Shown here: piece by piece, positions 17,406-19,551 of the stretch
Layout of the letters: every line of letters starts with the position of its first letter
Numbering within the stretch: the first letter of the stretch is position 1
IMG/VR virus record: IMGVR_UViG_2585427757_000006
Reading direction: 5' to 3' (one strand)
From: a virus
Lineage: Duplodnaviria > Heunggongvirae > Uroviricota > Caudoviricetes
DNA length: 64,000 nt
Notes under the pieces: model-generated
Seen by the model: only the letters and a program-made list of their open reading frames with translations
What the model was told of the DNA's origin: nothing
Databases searched by the model: none
Program-made: the position numbers and the translations under genes

Positions 17406-18209
17406 CTAGTATCCAAGAAAATCAGTATCTTTCTCTAATCTTATTTTTTCCAGCTTATACGATCCTGGAGGGCACTTCATTTTGTAGATTTCGATACCTG
17501 AATCAAATAGTTGATGAACATAATTTTGAAGTTGACTGCTAGCCTTACAACCTATTGTTATTTCCTTAATTAAGGATTTATCAAATAATTTCACGCCACA
17601 ATTCTCGGTTACGATTCTAACCTCCTCTTCATATTCCCAGACATCGCTTTTATTTAGGCAAAGAGCCGCTGCAATCTCTTTAGCTGAGTCGGTAAAAAAA
17701 TTTACAACCGGAACATCAGAGGAATATTTGACCTCACCGCGAACAAAAAAAACATCATCAAACGCATTTATAAAACCATCATCAAATCCGATGCAAAAAC
17801 CAGAGTGAGAATGCGCATAATGCGACCACATAAGATAATTATCTGGTCTTTTTGTCAAACAAATAACTCCCCGACACTGCAGAAAAGTTGTTCTAATCAT
17901 ATAGTTATCAAAACTGCGACTATGTTCTGTTTGACTCAATAACCAGCGTTCAAATTCATCATTGTGATGATTAGGCCAAAGCTCAAAAAATCTTTTCTTA
18001 ATGGCGTCTATATCAGCATCATAATCAAAATTAACTTTAAACTCGGCAGGATCGTTGAAATCATTCGGACGAGTTGCTCGAATTTTCCCATCTTCTAAGT
18101 AATACTTTAAATACTTTATTGTGTCTTCCGGGACGCTACTTCCAACATATTTGTAAAGCATAAATATACCTTTTAAGAGAAGGCGTCTAATCACGCCTTC
18201 TCTTATCAA
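17406..18209 (-). CDS. DUF2971-like protein (AT-rich accessory gene)
   Basis: 267-aa ORF; motif LMWSHYAHSHSGFCIGF matches remembered DUF2971 signature; AT-rich; true start may be Met17. Confidence 0.5.
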   Translation of the reverse strand: MIREGVIRRLLLKGIFMLYKYVGSSVPEDTIKYLKYYLEDGKIRATRPNDFNDPAEFKVNFDYDADIDAIKKRFFELWPNHHNDEFERWLLSQTEHSRSFDNYMIRTTFLQCRGVICLTKRPDNYLMWSHYAHSHSGFCIGFDDGFINAFDDVFFVRGEVKYSSDVPVVNFFTDSAKEIAAALCLNKSDVWEYEEEVRIVTENCGVKLFDKSLIKEITIGCKASSQLQNYVHQLFDSGIEIYKMKCPPGSYKLEKIRLEKDTDFLGY

Positions 18210-18565
18210 CCTTTCTTCATCAACTCTCGTTTAATTTCATCGGTACGCATCGTGACATCGGCAGCTGTGATTGCCTCGTTAAGTTTCACGATGTCCTCGA
18301 TTTCCTGCGGTGACTTCTCTGCCAGATGGAAAATGGCTGCGCGAATCACGTCAGAACGGGTGAATTTCTCGAAGCGAGGGATGAACTTCATCATCTCCAG
18401 CAGTTCGAAGTATTCGTCCTCCAGTGACATTGTGCGGCTTTTAATTTTCTCTTTGCCACGAGTCGGGCGTCCCTGTGGTCTGACTGGTTGGCGCAAAGGA
18501 GTTGTGTTCTTAGCCGGTGCATCAGGCTCTTTGCGCTTTGCTAGGTCACCCATTTTCATGGACAT
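18206..18565 (-). CDS. ParG-like centromere-binding partition protein (ribbon-helix-helix candidate)
   Basis: 119-aa basic protein immediately downstream of ParA-like ATPase, ATGA-coupled. Confidence 0.5.
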   Translation of the reverse strand: MSMKMGDLAKRKEPDAPAKNTTPLRQPVRPQGRPTRGKEKIKSRTMSLEDEYFELLEMMKFIPRFEKFTRSDVIRAAIFHLAEKSPQEIEDIVKLNEAITAADVTMRTDEIKRELMKKG

Positions 18566-19233
18566 TATTCTTCTTCCTCCAGACTCAACAGATAATCTAC
18601 AAATTCTTCAAACTCGGCTTCCGCCTTTTTGTCGCGCTCGCTACCGGTCATTTCAAAGATAGAACGACCAGACTCTTCCGCATCATCATAGACGTTGCGG
18701 TTATATAGATTGACTGGCGCAGACTCGATTCCAAACGTCTCAACAATCTCTTTAGCCGCCAGAATGCGAGACACTTGTGATGGCAAAGCCGGGCACTGGT
18801 TCATGACCGCGCGGACCTTCACTTTATCGTTTACATTGCGAACATTGTCGATAATAGGATCGATGTCACGCAGAGATTTCAAATCACGACGCTTAGGACG
18901 AAGCGGGATAATGATAACGTCGGCCATCAGCATCGCTTGTCGCTGAATTTCGGAGTCGAAGCCACCAGCATCTACCACTACAAACTCAGCTCTACCCTGA
19001 AGCGATTTTAGGTGCTTAATGATGTCATCCTGAACGTATGCAAAAGGAATCAGCTCAAGGTCTTCGTTCTGTCGACGGTCTTCACACCAGCTCGTTGTCG
19101 TGCGCTGAATATCTATATCGGTAATATAAACCTTCTTCTTCTTTTTGACTTTCAGGCAAACGGCAATTTGCTGGGCAACGGTGGATTTGCCAGGCCCGCC
19201 CTTTGTGCCGCCAACCACAAAGATCTTGGTCAT
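18565..19233 (-). CDS. ParA/ParF-type partition ATPase
   Basis: 222-aa ORF with deviant Walker A VGGTKGGPGKST. Confidence 0.75.
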   Translation of the reverse strand: MTKIFVVGGTKGGPGKSTVAQQIAVCLKVKKKKKVYITDIDIQRTTTSWCEDRRQNEDLELIPFAYVQDDIIKHLKSLQGRAEFVVVDAGGFDSEIQRQAMLMADVIIIPLRPKRRDLKSLRDIDPIIDNVRNVNDKVKVRAVMNQCPALPSQVSRILAAKEIVETFGIESAPVNLYNRNVYDDAEESGRSIFEMTGSERDKKAEAEFEEFVDYLLSLEEEE

Positions 19234-19551
19234 TGGAGAGTTCCCTTTGCGTATATAATTATCGTCTGAAACAACTTGTTTTCTTATATGTGATATAGCC
19301 TAAATGCCTACGGCTGCGGTGTAAAGGTTAAATGGTAGGTTGTGATTAACAATTGGCAAACATAGCTTGTATTTGTCTGTTGAAAAAAGTAACAATGACC
19401 TCTATATTACAAGTACGGTGATATGCCGTACACAATTTGATAATGCACACGTAATGGGCTATAGCCTTTTAAAGTAATTTTTGAGTCGAAAACTCAGTTT
19501 GAACAGAGGAGATTGATGGCCTTCCTACATCACGGCCATCAGGAGGAATAC

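What the first reader, a model, noticed from the sequence alone, without database searches (positions are those of the whole stretch)
18206..19512. ParA/ParG-like partition module within a phage structural genome (phage-plasmid signature)
A deviant Walker A ParA-type ATPase is followed by a small basic protein, with a 280-bp upstream non-coding region containing short palindromes (e.g. gggctatagcc, tacggtgatatgccgta). This indicates extrachromosomal maintenance rather than integration.
Basis: partly seen in the sequence, partly recalled or inferred. Interest (0 to 1): 0.5.

Follow-up and report, generated by a model that had tools for sequence, protein, structure and literature searches.

The report
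Partition operon of an SSU5-type phage-plasmid
This is the plasmid-partition operon (a ParF-like ATPase plus a small uncharacterised DNA-binding partner) of a well-known SSU5/pHCM2-type phage-plasmid, so the call is right but ordinary, and the two palindromes cited as centromere candidates lie outside the par cassette (one is the operator of the neighbouring toxin-antitoxin module).

Summary
ParA is 18565-19233 (222 aa, KGGPGKST). A 119-aa basic protein (18206-18565) follows, its start overlapping the parA stop (TAATG).

The window is 98% identical to Escherichia phage-plasmid Cyrano (pLF82) and 86% to SSU5. The cassette occurs in 737 plasmid records. In complete E. coli genomes all 265 copies are on plasmids and none on chromosomes.

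ParA is closest to ParF of TP228 (type Ib). The partner is an orphan restricted to SSU5-like elements. It has a disordered basic tail with a conserved MGDLAKR motif. The ribbon-helix-helix (RHH) assignment is probable but rests on weak, convergent evidence.

The conserved cassette runs 18200-19340. Its promoter block (19267-19328) is more conserved than the genes.

Both cited palindromes lie outside the cassette, in DNA that travels with the TacAT/KacAT module. GTACGG-N7-CCGTAC matches the crystallised KacA operator.

The only strong palindrome inside the par block, AAACAAnTTGTTT, is a genome-wide promoter element and probably not par-specific. The centromere therefore remains undefined.

Published RNA-seq shows parA and the partner expressed in lysogens, while the distant ParB_N genes are silent.

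Known kind, low novelty.

The parts
18565..19233 (-). parA: a 222-aa type Ib (ParF-like) Walker ATPase. It has the deviant Walker A K12GGPGKS18, Walker B FVVVDAGG, and no N-terminal HTH extension.
   Evidence: PDB ParF 4dzz / ParA 5u1g match at 1.2e-10 over residues 9-199. NF041546 ParA_partition matches at 1.9e-33 (115.7 bits, below the curated cut-off of 180). phrog_164 'ParA-like partition protein' matches at 4.2e-51.
18206..18565 (-). Partner gene for the presumed centromere-binding protein, 119 aa. It has a conserved N-terminal MGDLAKR motif, a disordered basic linker (1-46), a probable RHH domain (about 42-82), and two further C-terminal helices.
   Evidence: The family is an orphan: 25 hits in 5.8e9 proteins and 20 in 1.84e9 representatives. 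It is always found immediately 3' of this parA. hhalign gives 91.9% probability to P0040, a protein that passes the Pfam RHH_8 and RHH_1 thresholds. It is expressed in Cyrano lysogens.
19267..19328 (-). Invariant promoter/operator block of the par operon, and the best candidate region for the partner's binding site. It is unchanged in the 71 IMG/VR loci apart from 19291 and 19316-19318.
   Evidence: In pJN2-26 the block is 97.5% identical where parA is 77.3% and the 5'UTR (19234-19261) is 53.6%.
19297..19325 (-). Predicted sigma-70 promoter PparA: -35 TTTACA (19320-19325), a 17-nt spacer, and -10 TAGGCT (19297-19302).
   Evidence: Phylogenetic footprint. The same -35/17/-10 geometry is kept with different spacers in L012, L013 (TTGTCA), L015 (TAGTAT) and L018. 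The consensus scanner did not report it, because the -10 hexamer matches only 3 of 6.
19269..19281 (.). AAACAAcTTGTTT palindrome in the parA leader. It is one copy of a genome-wide promoter-proximal element and probably not par-specific.
19285..19297 (.). TATAT-N3-ATATA palindrome over the predicted transcription start. The arms are invariant and the centre base (19291) varies. It is unique to this locus within the window.
19380..19431 (+). Not part of par. This is the tacA promoter (TTGAAA-17-TATATT, 19380-19408) followed by the KacA/TacA-type operator GTACGG-N7-CCGTAC (19413-19431).
   Evidence: The operator oligonucleotide in PMC6698736 is AAATGTACGGTTATTAACCGTACATGA.
19552..20350 (+). Not part of par. 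TacA/KacA RHH antitoxin (19552-19821; the ORF begins at 19513) and GNAT toxin (19829-20350). They occupy the variable cargo slot upstream of parA.
17406..18161 (-). Cargo gene downstream of the par operon: DUF2971, matching PADLOC candidate defence family PDC-S31. Its homologue in Cyrano (CYRAN_30) is expressed at a similar level to the par genes in the lysogen.

Best explanation
The region 18206-19328 (minus strand) is the bicistronic partition operon of an SSU5/pHCM2-type phage-plasmid. Its architecture is type Ib (ParF/ParG-like).

A sigma-70 promoter (TTTACA-17-TAGGCT) drives parA and a translationally coupled 119-aa partner gene.

The proposed mechanism is inferred by analogy with TP228 ParF/ParG. 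ATP-bound ParA dimers coat the nucleoid. The partner dimer binds a site on the plasmid through a ribbon-helix-helix domain. Its flexible basic N-terminal tail, carrying the conserved G-D/G-L-A/G-K-K/R motif, stimulates the ParA ATPase. The roughly five plasmid copies are thereby spaced apart and inherited by both daughter cells.

The partner's binding site (centromere and autoregulatory operator) most probably lies in the invariant promoter block 19267-19328. The exact motif is not identified.

Shown here: the gene identities, the strict pairing of the two genes, the cassette limits, the extrachromosomal state of all relatives, and (from published data) expression in the lysogen. Inferred: DNA binding by the partner, ATPase stimulation, and the location of the centromere.
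For: - ParA is ParF-like over its full length and scores far better against plasmid ParA models than against MinD.
- The partner gene overlaps the parA stop. It is found with parA in all 71 IMG/VR loci that cover the region, and in every distant relative examined (L011-L018, Moellerella pW18-2-b), always at the same place in a phage-plasmid of about 108-111 kb.
- The RHH evidence is convergent. NCBIfam aCcr1 matches at 2e-4. Family members hit Pfam RHH_1 or RHH_8. A PDB profile search gives NikR and ORF56 in register. hhalign gives 91.9% probability to an RHH_8/RHH_1 protein.
- AF2 predicts residues 1-46 as disordered, and the N-terminal motif is conserved down to 31-34% identity.
- Homology with relatives starts at about 18200 and stops at 19340. 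Within it the promoter block is 92-100% identical where parA is 77-84% identical.
- There are 737 plasmid records, and 0 of 265 E. coli places are chromosomal.
- In LF82(Cyrano) lysogens, ParA is at 49.8 and the partner at 89.1, against about 5-10 for late genes. Copy number is 5.5 (PMC9928086).
- Y. pestis pMT1 is a relative that lacks this cassette. It carries a separate long-ParA/ParB gene pair instead.
Against: - No iterated repeat array, the usual form of a type Ib centromere, is present upstream, downstream or inside the cassette.
- ParA scores below NCBIfam's curated cut-off (115.7 bits against 180).
- No stability or incompatibility experiment on this cassette was found in the literature searched.
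- A second ParA/MinD-like gene (CYRAN_99) is expressed in Cyrano lysogens. It lies outside this window and could contribute to maintenance.
Confidence: 0.8

Rival explanations
1. ParA works with the two ParB_N-domain proteins encoded about 33 kb away (52063-53429, minus strand) as a type Ia-like ParABS. In this reading the adjacent small protein is only a transcriptional regulator.
For: Both proteins carry Pfam ParB_N (3.3e-13 and 1.5e-8). Cyrano annotates one of them as 'ParB protein'. A surveillance study uses 'parB' as an SSU5 marker gene.
Against: - They sit in the packaging/late block immediately upstream of the small terminase gene, not next to parA.
- Only the N-terminal domain is detected.
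- In the lysogen they are at background level (CYRAN_119 at 5.0, the floor, and CYRAN_120 at 9.5), while ParA and the small protein are at 50-89.
- pMT1 keeps both ParB_N genes yet also carries a separate long-ParA/ParB pair.
- The 222-aa ParA lacks the N-terminal extension of type Ia ParAs.
Confidence: 0.06
2. The small protein is a RelE/ParE-type toxin or other toxin-antitoxin component, as annotated in Cyrano (CYRAN_29) and counted there as a 'moron'. In this reading ParA is a solitary ATPase.
For: The Cyrano record names it 'RelE/ParE putative toxin'. It is expressed in the lysogen.
Against: - There is no Pfam, NCBIfam or PADLOC match to any toxin family.
- All the weak signals point to RHH DNA-binding proteins.
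- The long disordered basic N-terminus is unlike RelE/ParE.
- Its start overlaps the parA stop, and it never occurs without parA.
Confidence: 0.03
3. The small protein is both the centromere-binding protein and a genome-wide regulator. In this reading it binds all the dispersed AAACAAnTTGTTT palindromes (9 in the window, 18 in Cyrano). These would then act as scattered centromeres and operators, as with N15 SopB sites or RK2 KorB sites.
For: - The palindrome lies in the invariant parA leader. It is strongly over-represented, with 9 copies against 0.61 expected and 0 of 100 shuffles reaching 9.
- A 13-bp palindrome with half-site centres about 7 bp apart suits a beta-ribbon binder.
- The AAAACAA half-site is the k-mer most widely shared among parA upstream regions of seven lineages.
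Against: - There is a double dissociation. pMT1 has no homologue of the small protein (tblastn E > 0.7) but keeps 6 palindromes in the same promoter contexts. Moellerella pW18-2-b has ParA and the small protein but no such palindromes in promoters.
- L011, L012 and L017 lack the palindrome upstream of parA although the putative DNA-reading strand (K/R-S-R-T-x-S) is kept in L011 and L012 and partly changed (K-G-R-M) in L017.
- Promoters carrying the palindrome are both on (parA) and off (small terminase gene) in the lysogen.
Confidence: 0.1

Closest known systems
ParF/ParG/parH of Salmonella plasmid TP228 (type Ib Walker partition system; PDB 4dzz, 5u1g)
   Same: - A small ParA of about 206-222 aa with a deviant Walker A. 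It aligns over the full length (E 1.2e-10).
- A small partner gene lies immediately downstream.
- The partner has a flexible basic N-terminal tail and a probable RHH domain.
- The regulatory or centromere DNA is expected upstream of the operon.
   Different: - The partner has no detectable sequence similarity to ParG (no PF09274 hit).
- It is longer (119 aa, against about 76 aa for ParG as I recall it) and has two extra C-terminal helices.
- No array of short tetramer boxes like parH is present. There is only an invariant block of about 62 bp.
SSU5, pHCM2 and Cyrano (pLF82) phage-plasmid par locus
   Same: It is the same locus. DNA identity is 98.3% to Cyrano and 86.5% to SSU5, with the same synteny: tail, lysis, cargo, parA, small gene, cargo, replication genes.
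   Different: Nothing is biologically different. Existing records annotate only ParA. The partner is labelled 'hypothetical protein' or, in Cyrano, 'RelE/ParE putative toxin'. SSU5 annotates a shorter 96-aa version that starts 68 bp after parA.
ParA/ParB of pCXC100 and delta/omega of pSM19035 (other type Ib systems with RHH centromere-binding proteins)
   Same: There is precedent for type Ib partners that show no recognisable DNA-binding motif by sequence yet fold as RHH (PMC3074162 abstract). From my own knowledge of omega, there is also precedent for partners that double as operon repressors.
   Different: These systems use iterated repeats as the centromere. No such iteration was found here.
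KacAT / TacAT / AtaRT GNAT-RHH toxin-antitoxin modules
   Same: The neighbouring module (19552-20350) has a TacA1 domain (8.6e-26), a GNAT toxin, and a GTACGG-N7-CCGTAC palindrome just after its -10 element. This matches the crystallised KacA operator, which spans the transcription start.
   Different: It is a separate, mobile cargo module and not part of the partition system. SSU5 and pHCM2 carry other genes in the same slot.

Membership tests
Type Ib Walker-type plasmid partition system | Small ParA (about 200-230 aa) with deviant Walker A KGGxxGK[ST] and no N-terminal HTH domain | tested here: met
   The protein is 222 aa with GGTKGGPGKST at residues 8-18. It aligns with ParF residues 8-189.
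Type Ib Walker-type plasmid partition system | ParA scores as a member of NCBIfam NF041546 'ParA family partition ATPase' at the curated cut-off | tested here: not met
   E-value 1.9e-33 but 115.7 bits against a cut-off of 180. It is still by far the best NCBIfam hit; MinD scores 28 bits.
Type Ib Walker-type plasmid partition system | Small centromere-binding protein encoded immediately downstream in the same operon | tested here: met
   The genes overlap at TAATG. The pair is present in all 71 IMG/VR loci that cover the region and in all distant relatives examined. The two genes are expressed at similar levels in LF82.
Type Ib Walker-type plasmid partition system | Partner is a ribbon-helix-helix dimer | tested here: inconclusive
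   - In favour: aCcr1 at 2e-4; members P0040 (RHH_8 1.5e-5, RHH_1 4e-4, both just above cut-off) and P0027 (RHH_1 5e-3); hhalign of A1 against P0040 at 91.9%; NikR and ORF56 hits in register.
Type Ib Walker-type plasmid partition system | Flexible N-terminal tail of the partner stimulates ParA ATPase | not testable with these tools
   The sequence is consistent with it. Residues 1-46 are predicted disordered with pI 11.4, and the G(D/G)L(A/G)K(K/R) motif is conserved across the family.
Type Ib Walker-type plasmid partition system | Centromere of iterated short repeats next to the operon | tested here: inconclusive
   No repeat array was found in 17900-19900 or in the downstream intergenic regions of relatives. 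What is found is an invariant block at 19267-19328.
Type Ib Walker-type plasmid partition system | Cassette stabilises a low-copy replicon and exerts incompatibility | not testable with these tools
   No experiment was found in the literature searched.
ParG family (Pfam PF09274) | Sequence match to the ParG profile or to the ParG structure | tested here: not met
   There is no Pfam hit at E <= 10 for 16 family members, and no ParG chain in PDB searches at E <= 10.
SSU5-group phage-plasmid | Near-identity and synteny with SSU5, pHCM2 and Cyrano; replicon found as a plasmid and not integrated | tested here: met
   Identity is 98.3% to Cyrano and 86.5% to SSU5. There are 737 plasmid records. In E. 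coli, 265 of 265 places are on plasmids.
KacAT/TacAT toxin-antitoxin (for the two cited palindromes) | RHH TacA antitoxin plus GNAT toxin, with a GTACGG-N7-CCGTAC operator at the transcription start | tested here: met
   TacA1 at 8.6e-26 and GNAT at about 1e-6. The palindrome at 19413-19431 starts 5 nt after the predicted -10. The same arms occur in the KacA co-crystal DNA and in two other TacAT-bearing plasmids with different centres.
RelE/ParE toxin (Cyrano's annotation of the small protein) | Match to RelE/ParE family profiles | tested here: not met
   There is no such hit in Pfam, NCBIfam, PHROGs (phrog_5111, function unknown) or PADLOC.
Type Ia ParABS | ParB_N/HTH ParB encoded next to a long ParA that has an N-terminal regulatory domain | tested here: not met
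   The ParB_N genes are about 33 kb away in the packaging block and are silent in lysogens. ParA is the short form.

The most novel reading that the evidence does not exclude
The orphan 119-aa partner would found a new family of RHH-type centromere-binding proteins. It would also be the protein that binds the roughly 18 dispersed AAACAAnTTGTTT promoter palindromes of SSU5-type phage-plasmids. One protein would then couple plasmid partition to genome-wide control of replication and packaging promoters, in the manner of KorB or N15 SopB.
Probability: 0.1. Interest if true: 0.6.

Novelty: new member of a known kind. Interest (0 to 1): 0.25.

Why it matters
SSU5/pHCM2-type phage-plasmids are common in clinical E. 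coli, Klebsiella, Salmonella Typhi and Shigella, and some of them carry resistance genes. Their maintenance functions determine how long they persist in a host lineage.

The practical results here are modest:

- The real partner of ParA is a conserved orphan protein. Databases call it hypothetical or, wrongly, a RelE/ParE toxin. It was counted as a 'moron' in the LF82 study.
- The par cassette has sharp limits (18200-19340). It is flanked on both sides by slots that exchange accessory genes: a TA module on one side and a candidate defence gene on the other.
- The centromere of this very widespread plasmid family is still undefined. The search can now be narrowed to a block of about 62 bp.

Tried and rejected
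- **Sequence and profile searches of the small protein.** These covered Pfam, NCBIfam, PDB, PHROGs and PADLOC. There was no significant named family except sub-threshold RHH hits.
- **Search for an iterated centromere.** I tried repeat finder on 17900-19900, inspection of downstream intergenic regions in eight relatives, shared k-mers across seven lineages, and AAACAA density profiles. No array was found. Downstream there are only terminators, a replication-operon promoter, and a MITE-like insert in L015.
- **AAACAAnTTGTTT as the par operator.** I first took the palindrome at 19269-19281 to be the par operator. I dropped this because it is dispersed genome-wide, persists in pMT1 without the partner protein, and is absent from the Moellerella relative that has the partner.
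- **Rfam on 17000-20500.** Only sub-threshold miRNA-precursor hits on a terminator hairpin.
- **Subtractive screen for the palindrome's binder.** I looked for Cyrano ORFs present in pMT1 but absent from Moellerella. The output was noisy. The only lead is the 173-aa 'transcriptional regulator' CYRAN_114.
- **Helicase-based locus search in IMG/VR.** It returned only close relatives (93-100% identity), so it could not supply SSU5-like elements with a different par system.
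Full report
**Observation.**
The two genes lie on the minus strand. ORF 18565..19233 encodes 222 aa beginning MTKIFVVGGTKGGPGKST, a deviant Walker A. ORF 18206..18565 encodes 119 aa. Its ATG shares one base with the parA stop (TAATG), and a GGAGG lies 10 nt upstream. The small protein has pI 9.56 overall. Residues 1-46 are very basic (pI 11.4) and the remainder is acidic. The 279 bp at 19234-19512 contain no ORF on the par side. The divergent tacA ORF can start at 19513, but its likely start is 19552.

**What the element is.**
The 3-kb region is 98.3% identical to Escherichia phage Cyrano, the pLF82 phage-plasmid of E. coli LF82. The par part is 86.5% identical to Salmonella phage SSU5 and about 80% identical to Klebsiella phage-plasmids.

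The same cassette is found in 737 PLSDB plasmids, mostly about 110 kb, of which 703 are non-mobilizable. They include pHCM2 of S. Typhi. In 5,426 complete E. coli genomes it occurs at 265 places, all on plasmids and none on a chromosome.

The published study of Cyrano reports virions, a copy number of 5.5 per chromosome, and homology to SSU5 (PMC9928086).

**ParA.**
The best Pfam hits are MipZ, AAA_31 and CbiA. NCBIfam gives 'ParA family partition ATPase' at E = 1.9e-33. That is 115.7 bits, below the curated cut-off of 180, against 28 bits for MinD. PHROGs gives 'ParA-like partition protein' at 4.2e-51. The closest solved structures are ParF of TP228 (4dzz) and the same protein deposited as ParA (5u1g), at E = 1.2e-10 over residues 9-199. 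This is a short, type Ib ParA. The name 'MipZ' that PGAP gives some orthologues comes from that Pfam domain hit.

**The partner.**
The 119-aa protein has no Pfam hit and only a weak NCBIfam hit to aCcr1, an RHH family (2.3e-4). The family is tiny. There are 25 clusters among 5.8 billion proteins. A profile search of 1.84 billion representatives found only 20 proteins.

Every member whose context I could read sits immediately after this kind of ParA. The position in the genome is the same each time, in a contig or plasmid of about 108-111 kb: tail genes, lysis genes, a variable slot, parA, the small gene, a variable slot, then a phrog_2500 gene and a DnaB-type helicase. Both genes were present in all 71 IMG/VR loci that reach far enough upstream.

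The alignment shows three parts:

- a conserved N-terminal motif (MGDLAKR here; GGLGKK, GDLTSG or AGLAKQ in distant members);
- a variable basic linker;
- a conserved core, I-K/R-S-R-T-x-S-L/M-E-D/E-E-Y/F ... T/S-R-S-D-V-x-R-A-A-I, which reads like the strand, helix A and helix B of an RHH domain.

Support for RHH is indirect but consistent:

- Distant member P0040 passes the Pfam thresholds for RHH_8 and RHH_1, and member P0027 hits RHH_1 at 5e-3.
- hhalign of the family alignment against P0040 gives 91.9% probability.
- A family profile searched against PDB sequences brings up the RHH proteins NikR and ORF56 in register, though only at E about 1.

AF2 monomer models (pLDDT 68 and 75) predict residues 1-46 as disordered, followed by four helices. 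Fold searches with these models found nothing. I treat the RHH fold as probable, not shown. The Cyrano annotation 'RelE/ParE putative toxin' has no support in any library searched.

**Cassette limits and promoter.**
Aligning eight relatives shows that homology begins just after the small gene's stop codon (about 18200) and ends at 19340. On both sides the neighbouring genes differ between relatives.

- Upstream of parA are TacAT (here, Cyrano, pXJW9B263-1 and a C. freundii plasmid), two hypothetical genes (SSU5, Enterobacter), or one other gene (pHCM2, pJN2-26).
- Downstream is DUF2971 in this window, and other genes or none elsewhere.

Within the cassette, the stretch 19262-19340 is 92-100% identical in relatives whose parA is only 77-84% identical. 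In pJN2-26 the block is 97.5% identical, parA 77.3%, and the 5'UTR next to the start codon 53.6%. Across the 71 IMG/VR loci, 19267-19328 is invariant except at 19291 and 19316-19318.

In more distant lineages (L012, L013, L015, L018) a -35 TTTACA or TTGTCA is kept. A 17-nt spacer of different sequence follows, and then a -10 TAGGCT or TAGTAT at the same distance from parA. I take this as the par promoter: -35 at 19320-19325 and -10 at 19297-19302, read on the minus strand. The block also holds a TATAT-N3-ATATA palindrome over the predicted start site. Its centre base is the one variable position. The AAACAAcTTGTTT palindrome lies in the leader.

**The cited palindromes belong to the TA module.**
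Both lie beyond 19340, in sequence shared only with TacAT-bearing relatives. A good plus-strand promoter (TTGAAA-17-TATATT, 19380-19408) is followed 5 nt later by GTACGGTGATATGCCGTAC.

The operator DNA co-crystallised with K. pneumoniae KacA4KacT2 is AAATGTACGGTTATTAACCGTACATGA. It has the same arms and spacing, and it is described as spanning the kacAT transcription start (PMC6698736). Two other TacAT plasmids keep the arms and vary the centre.

GGCTATAGCC lies in the tacA leader. It is shared with pXJW9B263-1 but not with the C. freundii TacAT variant. I could not assign it a function.

**The dispersed palindrome.**
AAACAAnTTGTTT, allowing up to one mismatch, occurs 9 times in the window against 0.61 expected, and none of 100 shuffles reached 9. 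The sites are:

- 2614;
- 16450, upstream of the helicase gene;
- 19269, upstream of parA;
- 49854 and 49879, upstream of the small terminase gene and followed by a terminator-like hairpin;
- 59224, 59988, 60890 and 61375.

Each site lies a few to about 40 nt upstream of a minus-strand start codon, or up to about 66 nt for the distal of the two sites before the small terminase gene. The same 5' extension (AGA-AAACAA) occurs at most of these sites, with an AT-rich -10-like element a few bases further upstream. Cyrano has 18 such sites. The palindrome is conserved upstream of the helicase gene in L013, L015 and L018.

I tested whether it could be the partner's site and found a double dissociation.

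- Y. pestis pMT1 is a defective relative with no homologue of ParA or the partner (tblastn E > 0.7). It keeps six copies in the same contexts.
- Moellerella plasmid pW18-2-b has ParA and a partner homologue but no such palindromes in promoters.
- L011, L012 and L017 also lack it upstream of parA. The putative DNA-reading strand is unchanged in L011 and L012 and partly changed in L017.

I conclude that the palindrome is most likely the site of another phage-wide regulator. I give the alternative about 10%. A second dispersed palindrome, TAAGTAnnTACTTA, was also seen.

**Rival partner.**
Two ParB_N-domain proteins are encoded at 52063-53429 next to the packaging genes. In the LF82 lysogen transcriptome they are at background level (5.0 and 9.5). 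ParA, the partner and the DUF2971 gene read 49.8, 89.1 and 54.6, and late genes about 7-10 (PMC9928086 S1 table). pMT1 keeps these ParB_N genes but also carries a separate long-ParA/ParB pair. From my own knowledge, that pair is the P1/P7-type par system described for pMT1. This argues against the ParB_N proteins being the lysogenic partition partner.

**Mechanism.**
The best-supported reading is a type Ib partition operon. ParA-ATP sits on the nucleoid. A dimeric RHH partner is bound to plasmid DNA, and its basic N-terminal tail triggers ParA ATP hydrolysis, giving ratchet-like spacing of the roughly five copies. The partner would also autoregulate the operon.

The gene content, the pairing, the expression in lysogens and the plasmid state are shown. 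The biochemical steps are inferred from TP228 ParF/ParG, which I know from the literature and which matches by structure. The centromere is the weak point, because no iterated array exists. The invariant promoter block is the most likely place, and I put that at roughly even odds.

**Novelty.**
The element and its ParA are already in the databases and are used as phage-plasmid markers. I found no paper describing the partner or the centromere. The partner is thus a new, narrowly distributed member of the class of small type Ib centromere-binding proteins. Everything else is known.

Noticed in passing
window 2614, 16450, 19269, 49854, 49879, 59224, 59988, 60890, 61375: The palindrome AAACAAnTTGTTT (up to 1 mismatch) occurs 9 times against 0.61 expected. 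Each copy lies upstream of a minus-strand start codon: a few to about 40 nt for most, up to about 66 nt for 49879. Most copies share the 5' extension AGA, and an AT-rich -10-like element lies just upstream. Cyrano has 18 copies and pMT1 has 6. It looks like the operator of a phage-wide regulator. CYRAN_114 (173-aa 'transcriptional regulator') is shared with pMT1 and absent from the palindrome-free Moellerella relative, but this is only a weak lead.
   Followed up: partly
window 454, 8447, 11963, 17228, 27512, 34429, 40912, 46403, 53430, 60486: A second dispersed palindrome, TAAGTAnnTACTTA, has 5 perfect copies and 6 with one mismatch (two of the latter overlap, at 46403 and 46407). One copy sits directly upstream of the replication operon start (17223). 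Another lies between the ParB_N gene and the UvsW-like helicase gene. It is probably another global operator.
   Followed up: no
window 19380-20350 (+): A complete TacAT/KacAT-type toxin-antitoxin module (RHH antitoxin and GNAT toxin) with its own promoter and a KacA-type operator. It occupies a variable cargo slot between parA and the lysis genes. Its Cyrano homologues (annotated KacT toxin and its antitoxin) are the second and third most highly expressed Cyrano genes listed in the LF82 lysogen table (344 and 592).
   Followed up: yes
window 17406-18161 (-): The DUF2971 gene just downstream of the par operon matches PADLOC candidate defence family PDC-S31 (1.1e-40). In Cyrano its expression level is similar to that of the par genes. 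This second cargo slot holds other genes in relatives.
   Followed up: partly
window 18174-18205: A perfect 13-bp inverted repeat with a 6-nt loop lies immediately after the small gene's stop codon. It has no T-run on either strand and is not conserved in relatives with other downstream cargo. It may be a junction or an mRNA-stabilising hairpin.
   Followed up: no
window 52063-53429 (-): Two adjacent ParB_N-domain genes and an ABC-type ATPase gene lie upstream of the small terminase gene. They are silent in the Cyrano lysogen and retained in pMT1 and Moellerella. They are likely packaging or lytic-cycle functions rather than plasmid partition.
   Followed up: partly
window 49820-49891: The leader upstream of the small terminase gene carries two copies of the AAACAA palindrome 25 bp apart. 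A GC-rich hairpin and a T-run follow on the minus strand, before the gene. The layout resembles a late operon controlled by antitermination, and it is conserved in pMT1.
   Followed up: no
window 17329-17383: An 18-bp perfect inverted repeat (GACCTGCTTCCGTATATA / TATATACGGAAGCAGGTC) has an AT-rich loop and is followed by a T-run on the minus strand. It is conserved, with a partly compensatory change, in SSU5, pJN2-26 and L018. It is probably the terminator that ends par/cargo transcription ahead of the replication-operon promoter.
   Followed up: partly
L099/L100 (Y. pestis pMT1, NC_003134): pMT1 has lost the lysis, par and helicase region of the SSU5 backbone; an IS100 sits at the junction. 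It carries a long-ParA/ParB pair with a Phd/RelE module instead. This is a natural replacement of the partition system.
   Followed up: partly
L015 10441-10897: In one relative, the spacer downstream of the small gene holds an insert of about 300 bp bounded by inverted repeats of about 58 bp. It looks like a MITE.
   Followed up: no
L009 40738-41838 (Cyrano CYRAN_99; about 2 kb beyond the window's right-hand end): A second ParA/MinD-like ATPase (366 aa) is 9-fold above background in the LF82 lysogen. It may also contribute to plasmid maintenance.
   Followed up: no
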